NCBI RefSeq assembly: GCF_046105845.1
Contig: NZ_CP151004.1
Length of the DNA stretch: 64,000 nucleotides
From: Escherichia coli
GTDB taxonomy: Bacteria; Pseudomonadota; Gammaproteobacteria; Enterobacterales; Enterobacteriaceae
Strand: one strand, 5' to 3'
The notes under the pieces are model-generated. The model was not told where the DNA came from. It did not search any database and saw only the letters and a list, made by a program, of their open reading frames with translations. Positions within the stretch are counted from its first letter, which is position 1. Each line of letters begins with the position of its first letter. Shown one piece after another: positions 15,917 to 29,200 of this stretch. The position numbers and the translations under genes were made by a program.

Positions 15917-17137
15917 ACTGCCCTCCCACAAACCAGCCGTTCGGACGGGATACCACATACACGCTGGCTCCACCACGCCATCACGTCGGTTCTCTGCTCA
16001 AGATAGGTCGAGCGGTTATAAGCGGCGCGCGTCTGATTAGTATCCGCATGAGCCAGTACAGCTTCTATCACATCAGGGGAAAATCCGGCCTCATTCAGCG
16101 TGGTGCTACCCAGCGCCCGGAAACCATGTGACACCAGCTCCCCGCAATACCCCATACGCCGTAGTGCCTTATTGACCGTTTCGCTATTCATTGGTTGCGA
16201 GGGCTTAACCCGACCCGGAAACAGGAACGGCGAGTGTCCACTTATCGGTTTAAGTTGCTCCAGTATCCACAGCATTTCATCAGTCAGGGGCACCAGATGC
16301 TCACGGCGTTTTTTCATACGCTCAGCCGGAATAGTCCATAGCTTTTTCTCCGTATCAATCTCACGCCACATGGTGCCTGACGCTTCTCCGGGGCGCACCA
16401 GCGTCAGCAACTGCCACTTAATCAGATAACGAGTCATCAGCGATAGATTGGTGGTTTCAATCCGCTGTACCAGCTCCGGCAGGCGTTCCGGGCGGATAGA
16501 CGCCATATGCTGTTTTTTCGGCTTCTCAAAGACCTTACCGATGGTCGAGGCTGGATTCGCATCAAGCAGGCCGGAATTGACAGCAAATACCATCACTTCG
16601 TTGATACGCTGGGTTAGACGACGCAGGGTTTCCAGCGCACCTCGTGCCCGGACCGGCTCAAGGGCGGCAATCAGAGTATGTGCTTTCAATTCAGCTACCG
16701 GCATCTGTCCGATTGACGGAAGAACATCCCGTTCCATCGAACGCCAGATATCATCTGCATGCACTTCTGAAATGCCACTGGTCTTTTTAATAGCAAACCA
16801 TCTTGTCGCCACATTGATAAACAGGCTGTCGATTGCTTTCTTTTCCTGTTCTGCGGCTTCCTGCTCCAGCTTTTTCGGATCTACACCCTGAGCCAGCAGA
16901 CCAAGATATTCATCATGTACTGCGGGCAGCAGCAAGAGTTACAGCAGGATAATAACCCAGCGTGATATTGGTACGGGCAGTGGAGTTTGGACGCTGGTAA
17001 CGAAAACGCCAGATTTTCTTCCCGGAAGTACGAACAGAAAGCGTCAGACCATGCCCGTCAGGCAGGTCGTAATCTTTATCGGCGGGTTTTGCTTTTTGTA
17101 CTGCGGCAGCAGTCAGCAGGCGGCGGGTAATGGTCAT
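15913..17137 (-). pseudogene. int: P4-type tyrosine integrase interrupted by a frameshift (N-terminal 74-aa ORF plus 340-aa C-terminal ORF in another frame)
   Basis: ORF 16913-17137 encodes a typical P4-integrase N-terminus (AVQKAKPADKDYDLPDGHGLTL...GYYPAVTLAAAR). ORF 15913-16935 encodes the rest, including the catalytic region (HGFRALGSTTL...LAHADTNQT...Y). The frames overlap at 16913-16935 next to a GGG run (16924-16926). Could also be a homopolymer sequencing error. Confidence 0.75.
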
Positions 17138-17220
17138 GATTTACTCCTCAGTTATCGTCAATGTTAAGCGACGAGGCTGACGTAATATCCTGTTCCACCA
17201 CCACTTTTTCAGCCATAAAC

Positions 17221-17280
17221 TCAGAAATGGCCTACGAAATTTGTCCTCTGGTCGCATAGGCCATTTCATGGGCCATTTTG
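17221..17280. repeat. cluster of short repeats AAATGGCCYA (one direct, two inverted) between integrase and aspV
   Basis: AAATGGCCTA at 17224-17233; TAGGCCATTT at 17256-17265; GGGCCATTTT at 17268-17277. Adjacent palindromes GGATACAGGAGTATCC (17285-17300) and AATTTGTCCT/AGGACAAATT (17236-17245 / 17304-17313). Confidence 0.45.
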
Positions 17281-17319
17281 CACCGGATACAGGAGTATCC
17301 AGCAGGACAAATTCAGACG

Positions 17320-17357
17320 AAAAAAAACCGTATCACCTTGATAGCGATACGGTTTTC
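17320..17357 (-). terminator. rho-independent terminator downstream of aspV
   Basis: On the minus strand: CCGTATC-loop-GATACGG hairpin followed by a run of eight T. Confidence 0.65.
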
Positions 17358-17398
17358 TTACTTCACAGGATGTATAAAAACACCCTGAAATTTGTAAG

Positions 17399-17475
17399 TG
17401 GCGGAACGGACGGGACTCGAACCCGCGACCCCCTGCGTGACAGGCAGGTATTCTAACCGACTGAACTACCGCTCC
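17399..17475 (-). tRNA. aspV: tRNA-Asp (GUC)
   Basis: Reverse complement matches E. coli tRNA-Asp (GGAGCGGTAGTTCAGTCGGTTAGAATACCTGCCTGTCACGCAGGGGGTCGCGGGTTCGAGTCCCGTCCGTTCCGCCA). Position next to dnaQ identifies it as aspV. Confidence 0.97.
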
Positions 17476-17503
17476 GCGTTGTGTTCCGTTGGGAACGAGG
17501 CGA

Positions 17504-17532
17504 ATATTACGGATTGCCTCGTCCTTCGTCAA
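17504..17532 (-). promoter_or_regulatory. putative aspV promoter (-35 TTGACG, 17-bp spacer, -10 TAATAT)
   Basis: On the minus strand TTGACG (17527-17532) and TAATAT (17504-17509), about 30 nt upstream of the tRNA 5' end, with an A/T-rich stretch further upstream. Confidence 0.55.
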
Positions 17533-17607
17533 CGATTTTTCTCATCTTTTGAATCGTTTGCTGCAAAAATCGCCCAAGTCGCTATTTTTAGCGCCTTTTA
17601 CATGTAT

Positions 17608-18339
17608 TTATGCCCGCCAGAGGCAGCTTCCGCCCTTCTTCTGCACCAGATCAAGACGGGCTTCATGAGCTGCAAGCTCTTCATCTGTCGCAAAAACAAC
17701 GCGTAACTTACTTGCCTGACGTACAATGCGCTGAATTGTTGCTTCACCTTGTTGCTGCTGTGTCTCTCCTTCCATCGCAAAAGCCATCGACGTTTGACCA
17801 CCGGTCATCGCCAGATAAACTTCCGCAAGGATCTGGGCATCGAGTAATGCCCCGTGCAGCGTTCGTTTACTGTTATCTATTTCGTAGCGGGCACATAACG
17901 CATCGAGGCTGTTGCGTTTACCGGGAAACATTTTCCTCGCCACCGCAAGGCTATCGGTGACCTTACAGAAGGTATTGGTCTTCGGAATATCGCGCTTAAG
18001 CAACGAAAACTCGTAGTCCATAAAGCCGATATCGAACGCTGCGTTATGGATCACCAGCTCCGCGCCGCGGATATAGTCCATGAACTCATCGGCTACCTCT
18101 GCAAACGTGGGCTTATCGAGCAAAAATTCATCGGCAATACCATGTACGCCAAAGGCTTCCGGATCCACCAGCCGATCGGGTTTGAGATAAACATGGAAGT
18201 TATTGCCCGTCAGGCGACGGTTCACCACTTCAACGGCACCAATCTCAATGATCTTGTGGCCTTCATAGTGCGCACCAATCTGGTTCATACCGGTGGTTTC
18301 GGTATCGAGAACGATCTGGCGTGTAATTGCAGTGCTCAT
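17608..18339 (-). CDS. dnaQ: DNA polymerase III epsilon subunit (3'-5' proofreading exonuclease)
   Basis: Translation matches E. coli DnaQ as I recall it ([20 protein letters not shown]...). Start trimmed to the known Met; the track ORF begins 3 codons upstream. Confidence 0.96.
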
Positions 18340-18403
18340 AGCGGTCATTTATGTCAGACTTGTCGTTTTACAGTTCGATTCAATTACAGGAAGTCTACCA
18401 GAG

Positions 18404-18871
18404 ATGCTTAAACAGGTAGAAATTTTCACCGATGGTTCGTGTCTGGGTAATCCTGGACCTGGGGGTTACGGTGCTATTTTACGCTATCGTGGACGCGAAA
18501 AAACTTTTAGCGCTGGCTACACCCGCACCACCAACAACCGTATGGAGTTGATGGCCGCTATTGTCGCGCTGGAAGCGTTAAAAGAACACTGTGAAGTCAT
18601 TCTGAGTACCGACAGCCAGTATGTCCGCCAGGGGATCACCCAGTGGATCCATAACTGGAAAAAACGTGGCTGGAAAACAGCAGACAAAAAACCAGTAAAA
18701 AATGTCGATCTCTGGCAACGTCTTGATGCTGCGTTGGGGCAGCATCAAATCAAATGGGAATGGGTTAAAGGCCATGCCGGTCATCCAGAAAACGAACGTT
18801 GCGATGAGCTGGCTCGTGCCGCAGCGATGAATCCCACACTGGAAGATACGGGCTATCAAGTCGAAGTTTAA
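18404..18871 (+). CDS. rnhA: ribonuclease HI
   Basis: 155-aa product from [23 protein letters not shown] matches RNase HI. Divergent from dnaQ as in K-12. The track ORF is N-terminally over-extended. Confidence 0.96.
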
Positions 18872-19590
18872 GCCTGTGGTTTACGACATTGCCGGGTGGC
18901 TCCAACCGCCTGGCGAATTCGTGGCTTGTTTTTACTCTGTTTCATCGGATTTAGCGTTAAAGGAATAGTCCGTTTCCGGGCGACAATAAGTTGTAAGCAA
19001 CCAAGCGCAGGAATATGCGCATTCAATAGTTTTCCACCGTGTTTGTTCCACGGGAGAACGTGGAAACGGCTGGCGTGTAGCACTTCAAAATTCAACAAAG
19101 AGAGCCAGTCCAGCTGCCGCATCAGAGTAAACATCCGGCTGTTATAAGGCGAGGTTTTTCGCAATACCGGCACAAGTTTGCGTAATCCCATTAAACTGAT
19201 GGGATTGAAGCCACTAATCACCAGCCAGCCATCATCAATCAATACCCGATCGGCTTCACGCAATAAACGATGCGGATCGGTGCACCACGGCAATGTATGT
19301 GCCAGTAGACAAACATCAACGGATTTATCGGCAAAAGGAAGATGAAGTGGGTCCGCCTGCACCTGGACGGGCAGTCCTTGCGCAGAAACATTCACTTGAT
19401 GAGAAACCGCGCACGCTTCGCAATTGATTTCTGCGCTTAAATTGCCAATCTTAAGCAGATGAAAACCATACATTTTAGTGAACCACGGGTTGAGCTGGCG
19501 CTCCAGCGCCTTGCGATAAAGCTCTCCCCAGGGCAAATCGCCCCAGCAATCAGGAGCCACGACAGTTTGAGGGACTCTTGCCGGTTTCAT
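18868..19590 (-). CDS. yafS: SAM-dependent methyltransferase YafS
   Basis: Sequence and synteny (convergent 4-bp overlap with rnhA). Start placed at MKPARVPQ. Confidence 0.88.
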
Positions 19591-19620
19591 CACAACCTTC
19601 CGTTTCACACTGAGAGGTAA

Positions 19621-20379
<759 letters not shown>

Positions 20380-20450
20380 TAAAACTTTCTTGTCATCGGC
20401 TCCGTTCGCCGTTATGATCGGTCGTCTTTTAAGCAACTATTGACACACAC

Positions 20451-21809
20451 ATGAAGGCAAAAGCGATATTACTCGCCTCTGTCCTGCTCGTGGGTTGCCA
20501 GAGTACCGGCAACGTTCAACAGCACGCACAGAGCCTTTCTGCAGCTGGTCAAGGGGAAGCAGCAAAGTTTACAAGTCAGGCACGATGGATGGACGATGGG
20601 ACGTCTATCGCGCCAGATGGTGACTTGTGGGCTTTCATTGGCGACGAGCTAAAGATGGGAATTCCGGAAAATGACCGGATTCGCGAACAGAAACAGAAAT
20701 ATTTACGCAATAAGAGCTATCTCCACGATGTAACTTTACGGGCAGAGCCGTATATGTACTGGATAGCCGGGCAAGTTAAAAAACGTAACATGCCTATGGA
20801 ACTGGTACTACTACCCATAGTGGAGAGCGCTTTTGATCCTCACGCAACGTCTGGCGCCAATGCAGCAGGCATCTGGCAGATCATTCCGAGCACGGGGCGC
20901 AATTATGGTTTGAAACAGACCCGCAATTATGACGCGCGTCGCGATGTTGTTGCTTCAACAACTGCCGCGCTGAACATGATGCAGCGTCTGAACAAGATGT
21001 TTGACGGCGACTGGCTTCTGACCGTAGCGGCTTATAACAGCGGCGAAGGTCGAGTCATGAAGGCAATTAAAACGAACAAAGCGCGTGGGAAATCCACGGA
21101 CTTCTGGTCGTTACCGTTGCCGCAGGAAACGAAGCAGTACGTGCCTAAAATGCTGGCATTGAGTGATATTCTCAAAAACAGCAAGCGTTATGGCGTACGT
21201 CTGCCAACGACCGATGAAAGCCGTGCTCTGGCGCGTGTGCACCTGAGCAGCCCAGTTGAAATGGCGAAGGTTGCAGATATGGCGGGGATTTCCGTCAGCA
21301 AGCTGAAGACATTCAACGCTGGCGTGAAAGGCTCCACGCTGGGCGCAAGTGGTCCGCAGTACGTGATGGTGCCAAAGAAGCATGCAGATCAACTGCGTGA
21401 ATCTCTGGCTTCGGGCGAAATTGCTGCTGTACAGTCGACGCTGGTTGCCGACAATACGCCGCTTAACAGCCGTGTTTACACCGTACGCTCTGGCGACACG
21501 CTTTCAAGTATCGCTTCACGTCTCGGCGTTAGCACCAAAGATTTGCAGCAGTGGAACAAACTGCGCGGATCTAAGCTGAAGCCAGGCCAAAGCTTGACGA
21601 TTGGCGCAGGTAGTAGCGCACAGCGGTTGGCAAACAACAGCGATAGCATTACGTATCGTGTGCGCAAAGGCGATTCGCTTTCAAGCATTGCTAAACGCCA
21701 CGGCGTGAACATCAAAGATGTGATGCGCTGGAACAGCGATACTGCGAATCTGCAACCAGGCGATAAGCTGACGTTGTTTGTGAAAAACAACAACATGCCA
21801 GATTCCTGA
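20451..21809 (+). CDS. mltD: membrane-bound lytic murein transglycosylase D
   Basis: 452-aa ORF with lipoprotein signal (LLVGC), transglycosylase domain and C-terminal LysM repeats. Confidence 0.95.
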   Translation: MKAKAILLASVLLVGCQSTGNVQQHAQSLSAAGQGEAAKFTSQARWMDDGTSIAPDGDLWAFIGDELKMGIPENDRIREQKQKYLRNKSYLHDVTLRAEPYMYWIAGQVKKRNMPMELVLLPIVESAFDPHATSGANAAGIWQIIPSTGRNYGLKQTRNYDARRDVVASTTAALNMMQRLNKMFDGDWLLTVAAYNSGEGRVMKAIKTNKARGKSTDFWSLPLPQETKQYVPKMLALSDILKNSKRYGVRLPTTDESRALARVHLSSPVEMAKVADMAGISVSKLKTFNAGVKGSTLGASGPQYVMVPKKHADQLRESLASGEIAAVQSTLVADNTPLNSRVYTVRSGDTLSSIASRLGVSTKDLQQWNKLRGSKLKPGQSLTIGAGSSAQRLANNSDSITYRVRKGDSLSSIAKRHGVNIKDVMRWNSDTANLQPGDKLTLFVKNNNMPDS

Positions 21810-21823
21810 CAAACCAGATAATG

Positions 21824-21854
21824 AAAGGCACCGATTCCCCCGGTGCCTTTTTTA
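21824..21854. terminator. bidirectional rho-independent terminator between convergent mltD and yafE
   Basis: AAAGGCACCG-ATTCCCC-CGGTGCCTTT hairpin flanked by A and T runs. Confidence 0.7.
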
Positions 21855-21855
21855 T

Positions 21856-22626
21856 TTATGCTGCTTTATGTGCTTCTACCATGATGATATCACTGGTGAA
21901 AGAGCCATCATTCTGCAAGGCAAAATACGTTTTCACCTCTGTCGATGCGCTCTGTTGGTAAATGCGAATAGCGTCTACTAACGCTTCTGGCGTACGCATT
22001 CTCGCGACCCATGAAGAAAATTCCAGCGGTAACTTATCTGTAATTAAATTATCAACTATCAGATTGGCCTCATTGATTAACGTCAACCACTCACCGCTGG
22101 CGTAGTTTCGTACGTGAGAGGTATCGCGTAATGCTTCTACCGTCTGTAACCAGACGTCGCGCACTGGGTGACCCGGAGACATTACGTCCATCACAATCAG
22201 CCTACCGCCAGGTTTCAATATCCTATTCACTTCTCGCAGTGCTGCACCAACATCATGCCAGTGATGGGCAGAATAACGGCTGATAACAATATCAAATGCG
22301 TTATCGGCAAATGGCAGACTTTCGGCATAACCCTGGCGGGTGGTGATATTTTTCAGTTGCCGGGCTTCGGCAGCTTGTGCCACGACATCCAGCATTTGGG
22401 CAGATAAGTCATACGCCACCACCGCGCTCACGTTCTGCGCAGCGACAAAGCTGGCATGCCCTGCTCCGCAGCCCATATCAAGTACACTTGCATCAGGATA
22501 ATCAGCCAGACGCACCGCCAGGCGCTGTAAATCTCGCCCGGATGCATGTACGGTACTGGTTAAATACTCACTGGCCTGCGAGCTAAACTGCTTTTCTACG
22601 TGGTCATGGTGGGATTGTGTTGTCAT
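21856..22626 (-). CDS. yafE: class I SAM-dependent methyltransferase YafE
   Basis: 256-aa ORF with methyltransferase motif (VLDMGCGAGH). Synteny. Start codon uncertain. Confidence 0.85.
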   Translation of the reverse strand: MTTQSHHDHVEKQFSSQASEYLTSTVHASGRDLQRLAVRLADYPDASVLDMGCGAGHASFVAAQNVSAVVAYDLSAQMLDVVAQAAEARQLKNITTRQGYAESLPFADNAFDIVISRYSAHHWHDVGAALREVNRILKPGGRLIVMDVMSPGHPVRDVWLQTVEALRDTSHVRNYASGEWLTLINEANLIVDNLITDKLPLEFSSWVARMRTPEALVDAIRIYQQSASTEVKTYFALQNDGSFTSDIIMVEAHKAA

Positions 22627-22651
22627 TGCGCTGTCCTTTTATTGTTTGATT

Positions 22652-22683
22652 AAAAAGGGCAGCGCCAAACGTTGGTCTGCCCT
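22652..22683 (-). terminator. putative terminator downstream of yafD
   Basis: GGGCAG...CTGCCC hairpin followed by T-run on the minus strand. Confidence 0.55.
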
Positions 22684-22702
22684 GTGGCAGACCTGACATA
22701 CC

Positions 22703-23554
<852 letters not shown>

Positions 23555-23743
23555 CTACTGTTATAGGGATTTTAGCTCACTCTTTCAACGAGCAATTGTA
23601 TATTGTTATGTAAGCAAGTGCTTACACCGGTCAGAAATTTGCTCATTATTGAGAACATTAAATCGGATGACATATCACGCATCCTGATGGTTTAATGACA
23701 AATAAATTCAAAATATCTCATCTATTTTGCAACAGGAGCAAAA

Positions 23744-24658
23744 ATGAAAGCCACGTCGGAAGAACTCGCCATTTTTGTTTCGGTCGTCGAAAGCGGCAGC
23801 TTTAGCCGGGCAGCGGAACAATTAGGGCAAGCAAACTCAGCGGTAAGCCGGGCGGTGAAGAAGCTGGAGATGAAACTTGGCGTTAGCCTGCTTAATCGGA
23901 CCACGCGGCAACTTAGCCTGACGGAAGAAGGCGAGCGTTATTTTCGTCGCGTACAGTCAATTTTGCAGGAGATGGCAGCGGCAGAATCAGAAATTATGGA
24001 GACGCGTAATACACCGCGTGGACTGTTGCGCATCGATGCCGCAACTCCAGTAGTGCTGCACTTTCTGATGCCGTTGATTAAGCCTTTCCGTGAACGCTAT
24101 CCGGAAGTCACTTTATCACTAGTCTCCTCCGAAACGATTATTAATTTGATCGAAAGAAAAGTGGATGTCGCGATACGCGCCGGTACGTTAACGGATTCCA
24201 GCTTACGTGCCAGGCCGTTATTTAACAGTTATCGAAAAATTATAGCCTCCCCCGATTATATTTCCCGCTATGGGAAGCCAGAAACGATCGACGATTTAAA
24301 GCAACATGTTTGCCTGGGATTCACTGAACCCGCTTCCCTCAATACCTGGCCGATAGCCTGTAGCGATGGACAATTACATGAGGTGAAGTACGGTTTGTCA
24401 TCCAATAGTGGGGAAACACTGAAACAGCTTTGCCTGAGTGGCAACGGGATTGCGTGTTTGTCCGACTACATGATCGACAGAGAAATCGCTCGCGGAGAAT
24501 TGGTGGAGCTAATGGCAGATAAAGTGTTGCCAGTGGAAATGCCATTCAGTGCAGTCTATTACAGCGACCGTGCGGTAAGTACGCGCATCCGGGCTTTTAT
24601 CGATTTCCTTAGCGAGCATGTAAAAACAGCTCCCGGAGGAGCTGTCAGAGAGGCTTAA
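23744..24658 (+). CDS. yafC: LysR-family transcriptional regulator YafC
   Basis: 304-aa ORF with N-terminal LysR HTH ([32 protein letters not shown]). Synteny. Confidence 0.9.
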
Positions 24659-25458
24659 TCCCATTCAGGAGCCAGACCTTCCGGGCTAACCAGGCGGTCG
24701 TTGCAATCCAGTGCGGCGATCGCTTTTTTATCTTCGGCATCAAGCTGTAAATTTTGTGCCTTAAGATTACTTTCCAGGTTTTTACGTTTAGTAGAAGAAG
24801 GAATTACTGAGTAACCTTCCCCCATAGCCCACGCCAGAATCACTTGTGCCGGAGTCGCATTGTGTTTAGCTGCGATACGAGCAATAACCTCATCTTTCAG
24901 GGCCTTACCATACGCCAGCGTCATATAGGAAGTAATATGGATGCCGTGCTGTTTAGCCCAGGCAACCACTTTACGGTTTTGCAGATAAGGAGAGAGTTCA
25001 ATCTGGTTAGTAGCGATGTTTTCAGCACCAACAGCAGCAATCGCTTTTTCCATCAATGGGATCGTGAAGTTGGAAATACCGATCTCACGCGTCAGCCCTT
25101 GTTTTTTGGCTTCCAGCAGCGCCTGCATAAACTCTTCAACAGAGACTTCATCGTTTGGTGACGGCCAGTGGATTAGCGTCAGATCAACATAATCAGTACG
25201 CAATTTTTGCAGGCTCTCTTGCAGACTCGGGATCAATTTGTCTTTGCTGAGATTTTCAATCCAGATTTTAGTGGTGATGTAGAGTTCATGACGTGGCACG
25301 CCACTTTCTGCAATCGCCTGACCTACGGCAGCTTCGTTATCATAGATTTGTGCGGTATCAATTGCGCGATAACCAAGTTCAAGCGCCGTTTTCACAGATG
25401 AAATAACAACGTCGTCTTTGAGACGGAAAGTACCTAAACCAAATGCAGGGATAGCCAT
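24655..25458 (-). CDS. dkgB: 2,5-diketo-D-gluconate reductase B (aldo-keto reductase)
   Basis: 267-aa aldo-keto reductase sequence. Synteny next to the rrnH distal tRNA. Confidence 0.93.
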
Positions 25459-25580
25459 AATATGCCTCTTTTAATGCTATTTTCGTTAACTGAGGTGATT
25501 ATGGGCTTCAGACTGTTGCGGAAAAAGAGCGTAAAATGCAGAGGATTTTTGCGATTCTGGCAATAATAGATATACAGACG

Positions 25581-25610
25581 AAAAAAAACCTCGAGCGTTA
25601 ACTCGAGGCT
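25581..25610 (-). terminator. rrnH operon rho-independent terminator (after aspU)
   Basis: On the minus strand: CCTCGAGTTAACGCTCGAGG hairpin followed by eight T. Confidence 0.8.
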
Positions 25611-25620
25611 TCTTAATAAG

Positions 25621-25697
25621 TGGCGGAACGGACGGGACTCGAACCCGCGACCCCCTGCGTGACAGGCAGGTATTCTAACCGACTGAACTACCGCTCC
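25621..25697 (-). tRNA. aspU: tRNA-Asp (GUC), distal tRNA of rrnH
   Basis: Identical in sequence to the aspV copy. Lies 3' of the 5S rRNA. Confidence 0.97.
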
Positions 25698-25742
25698 ACC
25701 GAATTCTTTTACAACCACCGGTTTTATGACCGGCTTACTGCT

Positions 25743-25901
25743 TAATTTGATGCCTGGCAGTTTATGAATCACTTCGTGATTCACCCTTCGGGCCGTCGCT
25801 TCGCAACGTTCAAAAGCTTTCGCTTTTGTCCTACTCTCTTATCGAGTAGTGAACTGCCTCAAAGGTCAGTGCCATTCTTCGTAATTTGATGCCTGGCAGT
25901 T
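25743..25901. repeat. 20-bp direct repeat (TAATTTGATGCCTGGCAGTT) flanking a 119-bp segment between the 5S rRNA 3' end and aspU
   Basis: Copies at 25743-25762 and 25882-25901. The second copy includes the last 13 nt of the 5S gene. The intervening segment contains a GAATCAC-TTC-GTGATTC hairpin. Confidence 0.8.
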
Positions 25902-26008
25902 CCCTACTCTCGCATGGGGATACCCCACACTACCATCGGCGCTACGGCGTTTCACTTCTGAGTTCGGCATGGGGTCAGGTGGGACCACCGCGCTACGGCC
26001 GCCAGGCA
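25889..26008 (-). rRNA. rrfH: 5S ribosomal RNA
   Basis: Reverse complement matches E. coli 5S rRNA end to end (TGCCTGGCGGC...CTGCCAGGCAT). Confidence 0.95.
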
Positions 26009-26101
26009 AATTCTGTTTCATCAGACCGCTTCTGCGTTCTGAGTTAATCTGTATCAGGCTGAAAATCTTCTCTCAATCCGCCAAAACATCTTCGGCGTTG
26101 T

Positions 26102-29006
<2,905 letters not shown>

Positions 29007-29200
29007 TCACAACCCGAAGATGTTTCTTTCGACTCATCATCGTGTTGCGAAAATTTGAGAGACTCACGAACAACTTTCGTTGTTCAGTGTTTCAATTTTC
29101 AGCTTGATCCAGATTTTTAAAGAGCAAAACTTCGCAGTGAACCTTTGCAGGTACACTCTGAAGTATTTTTTATTTAATCACTACAGATGATGGTGGAGCT

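What the first reader, a model, noticed from the sequence alone, without database searches (positions are those of the whole stretch)
25743..25901. Extra 139 bp between the 5S rRNA and aspU, bounded by a 20-bp direct repeat that includes the 5S 3' end
As I recall, K-12 has only 52 bp between rrfH and aspU, and that 52-bp sequence is present here immediately after the first repeat copy (25743-25762). The true 5S 3' end is therefore followed by an additional 139-bp unit consisting of 119 bp of unrecognised sequence with a perfect hairpin (GAATCAC-TTC-GTGATTC) plus a second copy of the 20-mer. This looks like a small insertion or duplication in the rrnH distal region.
Basis: partly seen in the sequence, partly recalled or inferred. 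Interest (0 to 1): 0.4.

Follow-up and report, generated by a model that had tools for sequence, protein, structure and literature searches.

The report
5S-linked "tRNA-linked repeat" in rrnH
The extra 139 bp between the 5S rRNA gene and the aspartate tRNA gene is an unannotated copy of a known enterobacterial repeat family (tRNA-linked repeats, which include the RrA/RrB/RrF small RNAs); it lacks a terminator and sits in an rRNA operon that has no such repeat in E. coli K-12, so it is an ordinary but under-described strain polymorphism.

Summary
An exact 20-nt direct repeat (25743-25762 and 25882-25901) brackets 119 extra bp between the 5S gene (25889-26008, minus strand) and tRNA-Asp (25621-25697). 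K-12 has only the 52-bp spacer.

The sequence is recognisable. It is a member of the tRNA-linked repeat (TLR) family (Egan & Landy 1978; Rudd 1999; Stenum et al. 2021), whose units end in a copy of the 3' end of the upstream stable-RNA gene. It aligns with K-12 rrB, the sRNA gene between terminators T1 and T2 of rrnB. It gives a full-length sub-threshold Rfam RtT match. A covariance model built from it and its orthologues finds rrB, rrF and the tyrT, lysT and arg TLRs.

It differs from RrA/B/F. It has no T1 terminator, it lies upstream of a tRNA, and it keeps one of RrB's five GGA (CsrA) motifs.

The same unit fills the rrnH site in 559 of 5,426 complete E. coli genomes and the rrfD-thrV site in 10. 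It occurs after 5S in at least 12 enterobacterial genera. Compensatory changes support a closing helix plus five hairpins.

The likely role, which is inferred, is a co-transcribed spacer RNA excised by RNase E at the duplicated 5S-end site.

Novelty: new member of a known kind. Interest is low to moderate.

The parts
25889..26008 (-). 5S rRNA gene (rrfH homologue), 120 nt. Its last 13 nt (25889-25901) form the first part of repeat copy 1.
   Evidence: Rfam 5S_rRNA 93.4 bits. Aligned to K-12 rrfH. Coordinates.
25882..25901 (-). Repeat copy 1: AACTGCCAGGCAT (5S nt 108-120) plus CAAATTA. The CAAATTA contains the site homologous to the RNase E cut mapped 3 nt after 5S in rrnB.
   Evidence: RNase E site by analogy with the RrB 5' end in PMC8144298.
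25859..25881 (-). Variable 5' linker of the unit. It takes the place of the T1 terminator found in rrA/B/F and has no terminator hairpin or T-run.
   Evidence: Alignments. Terminator scan and direct reading.
25844..25858 (-). Antisense copy of 5S nt 101-115 (GGCAGTTCACTACTC, 14/15 match). It supplies the 5' strands of closing helix P0 and hairpin P1.
   Evidence: Inverted repeat I1. Local alignment. Consensus structure.
25830..25851 (-). Hairpin P1 (CACTACTC-gataaga-GAGTAGG). Its 3' strand, 25830-25838, is a sense copy of 5S nt 98-106 (GAGAGTAGG). The only GGA motif lies within 25828-25834.
25763..25829 (-). Conserved TLR core, about 67 nt, with four hairpins: P2 25812-25827, P3 25794-25808, P4 25783-25793 and P5 25766-25782. 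It contains the stretch TTTGAACGTTGCGAAGC.ACGGCCCG.AGGGTG shared with K-12 rrB.
   Evidence: Alignments. Covariation: P5 has 6 of 7 pairs with compensatory changes. Matches from the covariance model and Rfam.
25743..25762 (-). Repeat copy 2. AACTGCCAGGCAT (25750-25762) is the 3' strand of closing helix P0 and a copy of the 5S 3' end. CAAATTA (25743-25749) is the duplicated trailer and predicted second RNase E site.
   Evidence: The RrB 3' end maps 3 nt after the repeat (PMC8144298).
25698..25749 (-). The 52-nt 5S-to-tRNA spacer, identical to K-12, with the hairpin GCCGGT-cataaa-ACCGGT at 25717-25734.
25621..25697 (-). tRNA-Asp(GTC) gene (aspU homologue). It lies downstream of the unit and must be transcribed through it.
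   Evidence: ARAGORN and Rfam.
25581..25611 (-). Operon terminator: hairpin CCTCGAG-ttaacg-CTCGAGG followed by T8.
   Evidence: Direct reading. Inverted repeat I2. Terminator-like site.

Best explanation
The 139-bp unit is a 5S-rRNA-linked member of the tRNA-linked repeat (TLR) family, of a terminator-less subtype. Its layout is: an antisense copy of 5S nt 101-115, a loop, a sense copy of 5S nt 98-106, a conserved 67-nt four-hairpin core, then a sense copy of 5S nt 108-120 plus 7 nt of trailer. The RNA is predicted to fold into a closing helix (GGCAGUU/AACUGCC) that encloses five hairpins. There is no terminator or promoter between 5S and tRNA-Asp, so I infer that the unit is transcribed in every rrnH transcript. 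I also infer that it is released as an RNA of about 139 nt (about 25885 to 25747) by RNase E cuts 3 nt after the true 5S end and 3 nt after the duplicated copy. That would leave 5S and the tRNA-Asp precursor with the same ends as in K-12. By analogy with RrA/B/F it would be a short-lived RNA whose level follows rRNA transcription. It has lost 4 of RrB's 5 GGA motifs, including those in the hairpin loops, so it is unlikely to titrate CsrA as RrB does in vitro, and its cellular role remains unknown. The presence/absence polymorphism arises by recombination at the 19-20-bp repeat and by exchange between rrn operons. What is shown: homology, family architecture, structural covariation, population and taxonomic distribution, and recombinant mosaics. 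What is inferred: transcription, the processing sites, lack of CsrA binding, and function.
For: Homology to K-12 rrB, with a shared core and the same terminal 5S-end copy. Rfam RtT full-length match at 26.9 bits, E=0.0037, with the closing helix aligned. A covariance model built only from terminator-less 5S-linked units finds rrB (63.7 bits), rrF (61.3), tyrT TLRs (32-45), lysT-operon TLRs (26-30) and an arg TLR (21.6). The closing helix changes sequence with the host gene: tRNA-Tyr, tRNA-Lys, 5S. The split sense copy plus antisense copy of the host 3' end appears in both the 5S unit and the tyrV unit. Covariation: 96.5% of cells are paired, and 8 pairs change on both sides against 1.3 +/- 1.0 in shuffles (0 of 500 reach 8) and 2 or fewer in slid controls. 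One G-U pair is invariant and several others are scattered, which favours the rRNA-sense strand. The unit is more conserved than the adjacent spacer in all nine cross-lineage comparisons. No terminator or promoter lies between 5S and tRNA-Asp. The window RNA has 1 GGA against 5 in RrB; mutating three GGA motifs abolished CsrA binding of RrB (PMC8144298). RrB ends map 3 nt after 5S and 3 nt after the repeat. Filled and empty sites at rrnH and rrnD obey the same junction rule. Reciprocal mosaics occur in AR_0019 and MJ-T.
Against: No expression or processing data exist for this unit. The Rfam RtT score is below the gathering threshold (26.9 against 45). The single-sequence minimum-energy fold pairs the 5' linker differently from the consensus structure, so the closing helix is supported mainly by family-level covariation. 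Within the 5S-linked set it barely varies. The unit is absent from about 90% of E. coli genomes, so any function is dispensable. The taxonomic survey is biased, because the scan pattern required GAA in P4 and an exact 5S end.
Confidence: 0.8

Rival explanations
1. It is a functional equivalent of RrA/B/F: an Hfq- and CsrA-binding small RNA that couples CsrA activity to rRNA synthesis. At this site it would be made at full operon rate, because no T1 terminator precedes it.
For: It is homologous to rrB, with the same position after 5S and the same hairpin layout. The structure is under purifying selection. One GGA motif (GUAGGAC), shared with RrB, is retained.
Against: The loops that read GGGA, GGA and AGGA in rrB read GAAA, GAA and GAA here, leaving 1 GGA against 5. 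RrB with three GGA motifs mutated no longer bound CsrA. The 19 tRNA-linked TLRs, which have similar GAA-type loops, scored below 0.01 in the CsrA-binder predictor. Even the RrA/B/F phenotypes were modest.
Confidence: 0.12
2. It is a functionless, tolerated passenger. By carrying its own copy of the 5S 3' end and RNase E site, it can sit in an rRNA transcript without disturbing maturation, and it drifts in and out by repeat-mediated deletion and rrn-rrn gene conversion.
For: It is present in only about 10% of E. coli genomes and patchily across genera. Empty sites are precise. Mosaics show frequent exchange between operons. Stenum et al. constructed a K-12 strain deleted for all 22 TLRs (strain list in their supplement), and phenotypes were only modest for the rrA/B/F deletion.
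Against: Compensatory substitutions maintain the hairpins across genera, and the unit is better conserved than the neighbouring spacer. A purely neutral sequence should decay. Selection for harmless folding or processing could, however, produce part of this signal.
Confidence: 0.3
3. It is a recent insertion of a small mobile element (MITE-like) that created a 20-bp target-site duplication.
For: Direct repeats flank the extra DNA and an 'empty site' exists in K-12. The same unit is found at a second site, rrfD-thrV.
Against: The unit ends carry no terminal inverted repeats. The 'duplication' is always the 3' end of the upstream stable-RNA gene and changes with the host gene across the family. 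Every copy found here follows a 5S gene. Orthologous filled sites in many genera indicate an old feature. Homologous exchange between rrn operons explains the second site and the mosaics.
Confidence: 0.04
4. It is the decayed remnant of a second 5S gene, as in the rrfD-thrV-rrfF arrangement of rrnD.
For: It contains 9-nt and 13-nt sense copies of the 5S 3' end and is about the length of a 5S gene.
Against: The Rfam 5S model finds only the true 5S, even at E<=10. The 67-nt core is homologous to TLR cores downstream of tRNA genes, not to 5S. An antisense 5S segment is also present, which gene decay does not explain.
Confidence: 0.03

Closest known systems
rrA / rrB / rrF, the 5S-linked TLRs (sRNAs RrA, RrB, RrF) between terminators T1 and T2 of E. 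coli K-12 rrnA, rrnB and rrnD (Stenum et al. 2021, PMC8144298)
   Same: They lie immediately downstream of a 5S gene in the rRNA transcript. They end in a second copy of AACTGCCAGGCATCAAAT(T). They share the core TTTGAACGTTGCGAAGC.ACGGCCCG.AGGGTG and the same order of hairpins. They recombine with the window type inside that core.
   Different: The window unit has no T1 terminator; a 23-nt linker takes its place. It is followed by tRNA-Asp, not T2. Hairpins P2 and P5 have different sequences. The loops read GAA(A) instead of GGA-containing sequences, giving 1 GGA against 5. It retains the antisense segment and hairpin P1, which are degenerate in rrB. BLAST at E<=1e-5 does not connect the two. 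It is present in only about 10% of E. coli genomes.
RtT RNA / rttR and the tyrT-tyrV distal repeats (Rfam RF00391; Egan & Landy 1978; Bosl & Kersten 1991)
   Same: They share the family architecture: a 5' segment complementary to a 3'-terminal copy of the host gene's end, internal hairpins including CGUUGC...GCAACG and CCCGAAGGG, GAA-type loops, and a position inside a stable-RNA transcript with no terminator before it.
   Different: Their host is tRNA-Tyr, and the terminal copy is AATCCTTCCCCCACCACCA. The window unit scores only 26.9 bits against a gathering score of 45, while true RtT units score 133-137 bits. The tyrT units are tandemly repeated and one overlaps the tpr ORF.
Other tRNA-linked TLRs of K-12 (lysT-valT-lysW... 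operon, argQZYV, serX, proK; Rudd 1999, as cited in PMC8144298)
   Same: They are intercalated between genes of a stable-RNA operon. Each ends in a copy of the upstream gene's 3' end. They share the P3-P4-P5 core.
   Different: The lysT-operon units lack P1 and P2 (about 37 nt shorter). Their hosts are tRNAs. The serX units were not detected by my model.

Membership tests
tRNA-linked repeats (TLR; Rudd 1999; Stenum et al. 2021) | Located immediately downstream of a tRNA or rRNA gene, inside the same operon | tested here: met
   The unit starts right after the 5S 3' end (25888) and lies upstream of tRNA-Asp, with no promoter or terminator between them.
tRNA-linked repeats (TLR; Rudd 1999; Stenum et al. 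2021) | The 3' end of the unit is identical over about 18-19 bp to the sequence at the 3' end of the upstream gene | tested here: met
   The 20-nt exact repeat AACTGCCAGGCATCAAATTA comprises 13 nt of mature 5S plus 7 nt of trailer. The definition is quoted from PMC8144298.
tRNA-linked repeats (TLR; Rudd 1999; Stenum et al. 2021) | Sequence and structure homology of the core to other TLRs | tested here: met
   Alignment with rrB. Rfam RtT full-length match, E=0.0037. Model R1 finds rrB, rrF and the tyrT, lysT-operon and arg TLRs at E from 1e-17 to 3e-4.
tRNA-linked repeats (TLR; Rudd 1999; Stenum et al. 2021) | Closing helix between a 5' segment and the terminal host-end copy (the structure in Rfam RF00391) | tested here: met
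   GGCAGUU/AACUGCC is 98% paired in 15 sequences. The equivalent helix uses host-specific sequences in the tyrT and lysT units.
RrA/B/F sRNAs (5S-linked TLRs of K-12) | Lies between two terminators (T1 and T2) at the end of an rrn operon, and is expressed by T1 read-through | tested here: not met
   There is no T1 hairpin or T-run, and the unit is followed by the 52-nt spacer and tRNA-Asp.
RrA/B/F sRNAs (5S-linked TLRs of K-12) | Near-identity (>98%) to rrA/rrB/rrF | tested here: not met
   Only the core is shared, and P2 and P5 are replaced. blastn at E<=1e-5 finds no K-12 match. R1 scores rrB at 63.7 bits against 168 bits for the window unit.
RrA/B/F sRNAs (5S-linked TLRs of K-12) | Five GGA motifs, some in single-stranded regions or loops, that mediate CsrA binding | tested here: not met
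   One GGA against five, and the loops read GAAA, GAA and GAA (alignments). The motif requirement comes from PMC8144298. Binding itself is not testable here.
RrA/B/F sRNAs (5S-linked TLRs of K-12) | Processed to discrete short-lived RNAs with ends at RNase E sites; binds Hfq | not testable with these tools
   This needs Northern blots, RACE and EMSA in a carrier strain. Only the sequence of both predicted sites (GCAUCAA|AUUA) is conserved.
Rfam RtT (RF00391) | Score at or above the family gathering threshold (45 bits) | tested here: not met
   26.9 bits for the window, 34.1 bits for the AR_0019 mosaic, and 133-137 bits for the true tyrT units. It is a distant relative, not a member of the family as Rfam delimits it.
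5S rRNA gene or pseudogene | Match to the 5S covariance model | tested here: not met
   Only the true 5S (93.4 bits) is found at E<=10 in 25560-26020.
Transposable element (MITE or IS) with target-site duplication | Terminal inverted repeats, and copies at unrelated genomic sites | tested here: not met
   The unit ends have no terminal inverted repeats. Of 584 places in E. coli, 559 are at rrnH and 10 at rrfD-thrV. The 3 other places I inspected, and every copy found in other genera, also follow a 5S gene.

The most novel reading that the evidence does not exclude
TLRs may be a propagating class of element rather than static leftovers. On this reading, a conserved core of about 65 nt sits inside a fold-back (antisense plus sense) copy of the last 23-28 nt of whichever stable-RNA gene precedes it. 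It would spread between stable-RNA operons and re-tailor its arms to each new host, for example by template switching or fold-back synthesis on the precursor or its DNA. The filled/empty polymorphisms at rrnH and rrfD-thrV, the three downstream contexts across genera, and the reciprocal mosaics would then be traces of ongoing movement. They would give natural material to solve the origin of a repeat family that has been unexplained since 1978.
Probability: 0.12. Interest if true: 0.7.

Novelty: new member of a known kind. Interest (0 to 1): 0.3.

Why it matters
It replaces an 'unknown insertion' with a named family. It also shows that K-12 under-represents that family: a terminator-less 5S-linked TLR occupies the 5S-tRNA spacers of about 10% of E. 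coli genomes and many other Enterobacterales, and none of the listed records annotates it. Strains with and without the unit at the same site, plus natural chimeras with rrB (AR_0019, MJ-T), are ready-made material. They could be used to test what TLR RNAs do, whether GGA loops are what makes RrA/B/F bind CsrA, and whether the duplicated 5S end is an RNase E processing signal. On the practical side, the 139-bp length polymorphism affects alignment and assembly of rrn-distal regions.

Tried and rejected
1. Assembly artefact or chance repeat. Rejected: hundreds of independent complete genomes and other genera carry the unit.

2. Second 5S pseudogene. Rejected: no 5S model match, and the core is TLR-like.

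3. Terminator or attenuator between 5S and tRNA-Asp. Rejected: no hairpin with a T-run.

4. Internal promoter for aspU. None found.

5. Small protein. A 14-codon ORF (MALTFEAVHYSIRE, 25831-25875, minus strand) exists. It is frameshifted or absent in other genera, and the E. coli alleles differ by non-synonymous changes, so I rejected it.

6. Donor copy elsewhere in E. coli. blastn in 'distant' mode found nothing beyond the same 574 genomes.

7. The mobilome preprint that mentions rtT. It attributes the signal to RNA/DNA heteroduplex artefacts and says nothing on mobility.

8. Literature search for an earlier description of a TLR at rrnH. Only Stenum et al. 2021 and an editorial mention TLRs in the held library. 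Rudd 1999 is not held, so earlier description cannot be excluded.

9. K-12 serX TLRs were not detected by my model. I did not pursue this.

Full report
**Observation**

The rRNA operon lies on the minus strand. 23S is at 26102-29006, 5S at 25889-26008 and tRNA-Asp(GTC) at 25621-25697. An intrinsic terminator follows at 25581-25611, then dkgB.

The repeat finder gives a direct repeat with 139-bp spacing. It is exact over 20 nt (25743-25762 and 25882-25901) and 25 nt long with two mismatches. The promoter-proximal copy consists of the last 13 nt of 5S plus 7 nt of trailer.

K-12 MG1655 has exactly 52 bp between rrfH and aspU. The alignment shows that the window equals K-12 plus one 139-bp unit.

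**What it is**

The 119 'unrecognised' bases align with the K-12 rrnB region between terminators T1 and T2. The two share the block TTTGAACGTTGCGAAGC.ACGGCCCG.AGGGTG. rrnB also ends this region in a second copy of AAACTGCCAGGCATCAAATTAAGCAG.

Rfam gives a full-length but sub-threshold match to RtT RNA, the tyrT distal repeat: 26.9 bits, E=0.0037, against a gathering score of 45.

The literature names the family. tRNA-linked repeats (TLRs) number 22 units at 10 loci in K-12. Each ends in 18-19 bp identical to the 3' end of the upstream tRNA or rRNA gene. The three 5S-linked ones (rrA, rrB, rrF) give short-lived sRNAs that bind Hfq and CsrA in vitro. Their 5' end lies at the RNase E site 3 nt after 5S, and their 3' end lies 3 nt after the repeated copy (PMC8144298).

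As a reciprocal test I built a covariance model from 15 terminator-less 5S-linked units only. It finds the following:
- K-12 rrB at 63.7 bits and rrF at 61.3 bits
- the four tyrT units at 32-45 bits
- three lysT-operon units at 26-30 bits
- an arg-operon unit at 21.6 bits

Membership of the TLR family is thus well supported. Membership of the narrower RrA/B/F group, or of Rfam RtT as delimited, is not.

**Anatomy**

Read 5' to 3' on the minus strand, the unit has these parts:

| Part | Window coordinates |
|---|---|
| Variable linker, 23 nt | 25859-25881 |
| Antisense copy of 5S nt 101-115 (14/15 match) | 25844-25858 |
| Loop | between the antisense and sense copies |
| Sense copy of 5S nt 98-106 | 25830-25838 |
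| Core, 67 nt | 25763-25829 |
| Sense copy of 5S nt 108-120 | 25750-25762 |
| Trailer CAAATTA | 25743-25749 |

So the last 23 nt of 5S are present as a copy split by the core. The tyrV unit has the same layout, with the core splitting a copy of the tRNA-Tyr 3' end inside the T loop and an antisense copy upstream.

The consensus fold of 15 units from at least 10 genera is a closing helix (GGCAGUU/AACUGCC) around five hairpins. In total, 96.5% of cells are paired. Eight pairs carry changes on both sides, against 1.3 +/- 1.0 in shuffles (0 of 500 reach 8) and 2 or fewer in the slid controls.

One G-U pair is invariant and several others are scattered through the structure. These favour the rRNA-sense strand, which points to selection on the RNA.

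Across the family, the closing helix changes sequence with the host gene:
- tRNA-Tyr: GGGGAAGG/CCUUCCCC
- tRNA-Lys: CGUG.AGG/CCUGCACG
- 5S: GGCAGUU/AACUGCC

**Differences from RrA/B/F**

- There is no T1 hairpin or T-run, and no promoter, between 5S and tRNA-Asp. The unit should therefore be transcribed in every rrnH transcript rather than by about 13% read-through. That figure follows from the 87% T1 termination efficiency cited in PMC8144298.
- Hairpins P2 and P5 have unrelated sequences.
- The loops read GAAA, GAA and GAA where rrB has GGGA, GGA and AGGA.
- The predicted RNA has one GGA against five in RrB. Mutating three GGA motifs abolished CsrA binding of RrB, and the tRNA-linked TLRs scored below 0.01 in a CsrA-binder predictor.

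**Distribution**

Within E. coli:
- The 119 bp occur in 574 of 5,426 complete genomes (584 places), and no listed hit has an annotated feature under the match.
- 559 genomes have the unit in the rrf-unit-tRNA-Asp-dkgB context.
- 10 genomes have the same E. coli-type unit between rrfD and thrV, with the same junction rule.

Two genomes are reciprocal chimeras, with the crossover in the shared core:
- AR_0019 has an rrB-like 5' half with T1, plus a window-type 3' half, upstream of tRNA-Asp.
- MJ-T has a window-type 5' half without T1, plus an rrB-type 3' half with T2, at rrnB next to murB.

One scan of species-representative genomes returned 27 loci in at least 12 genera. The pattern required GAA in P4 and the 5S end. 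The terminator-less unit of 137-140 nt always follows a 5S gene. It precedes one of three things:
- tRNA-Asp: Siccibacter, Raoultella, Kluyvera, two unnamed Enterobacteriaceae, Rouxiella, Serratia sp. and E. coli E69
- tRNA-Thr: Pseudocitrobacter, Escherichia whittamii, Brenneria and one unnamed Enterobacteriaceae
- a final terminator: Siccibacter, Phytobacter, Raoultella sp. and a divergent E. coli

All seven T1-containing units in the sample are followed by a T2-like terminator and none by a tRNA.

In all nine cross-lineage comparisons the unit is more conserved than the adjacent spacer. For example, the figures are 91.6% against 70% for Kluyvera and 73.6% against 40.5% for Rouxiella.

**Mechanism**

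Shown:
- family membership and architecture
- selection on the RNA structure
- recombination between rrn operons

Inferred:
- Co-transcription with 5S and tRNA-Asp.
- Excision by RNase E at the two identical GCAUCAA|AUUA sites. This would leave 5S and pre-tRNA-Asp as in K-12 and release an RNA of about 139 nt.
- A short half-life, as for RrA/B/F.
- No efficient CsrA titration.

The biological role is unknown. Absence from about 90% of E. coli genomes shows that the unit is dispensable.

The direction of the polymorphism is open. Orthologous filled sites in distant genera, and in a divergent Escherichia lineage (E69, 99.2% identical), favour an old unit with repeat-mediated losses. Import by recombination through the conserved 5S and tRNA flanks is not excluded.

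**Comparison and verdict**

This is a new, unannotated member of a known family, the TLRs. It belongs to a terminator-less 5S-linked subtype that K-12 lacks. A specialist would not be very surprised.

The useful points are three: the natural filled, empty and chimeric alleles; the GGA-less contrast to RrB; and the fold-back, split-copy architecture. I could not check whether Rudd (1999) already described that architecture, because the paper is not in the held library.

**Limits**

- There are no expression data for the unit.
- Only one biased genome scan was possible.
- The model's E-values are rough.

Noticed in passing
window 25921 (minus strand; 5S position 88): The window's 5S gene reads GGGGTATCCCC where K-12 rrfH and rrfB and all other compared E. 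coli 5S genes read GGGGTCTCCCC. This is a C-to-A change in a hairpin loop.
   Followed up: partly
window 17000-25600: The single-copy flank (aspV to dkgB) is at most 99.1% identical to any of 5,426 complete E. coli genomes. An Rfam hit to the Shigella sRNA CssrA lies at 63798-63907. The source may be a Shigella or a lineage not in the E. coli collection.
   Followed up: no
L004 (E. coli AR_0019) 521-735; L040 (E. coli MJ-T) about 444-640: These are reciprocal chimeras between the rrB-type and window-type units, with the crossover inside the conserved core. AR_0019 thereby places a T1 terminator upstream of tRNA-Asp, and MJ-T removes T1 from rrnB.
   Followed up: yes
L035 (E. coli EC42405) 516-668: The same unit lies between rrfD and thrV in 10 E. 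coli genomes. At least two of them (WL297 and N96) have it only there and not at rrnH.
   Followed up: partly
window 25831-25875 (minus strand): A 14-codon ATG ORF (MALTFEAVHYSIRE) lies inside the unit. It is not conserved across genera and shows non-synonymous differences among E. coli alleles.
   Followed up: yes
L030 (Serratia nevei) 1-345; L022 (Rouxiella silvae), downstream of the T2-like terminator: Serratia nevei has a longer 5S-distal region with extra GC-rich hairpins before the TLR core, and a variant 5S 3' end (GTAGGACACTGCC). Rouxiella L022 shows what looks like another TLR-like unit beginning after the terminator.
   Followed up: no
L038 (K-12 serX locus): The four serX-linked TLRs listed in the Stenum et al. 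supplement were not detected by my 5S-TLR covariance model at E<=1. Either they are much more divergent or the fetched range missed them.
   Followed up: no
window 29014-29122 (minus strand) and 17402-17475 (minus strand): There is an Rfam StyR-44 match just upstream of 23S and a second tRNA-Asp gene (the aspV homologue). Both are expected for this E. coli region.
   Followed up: no
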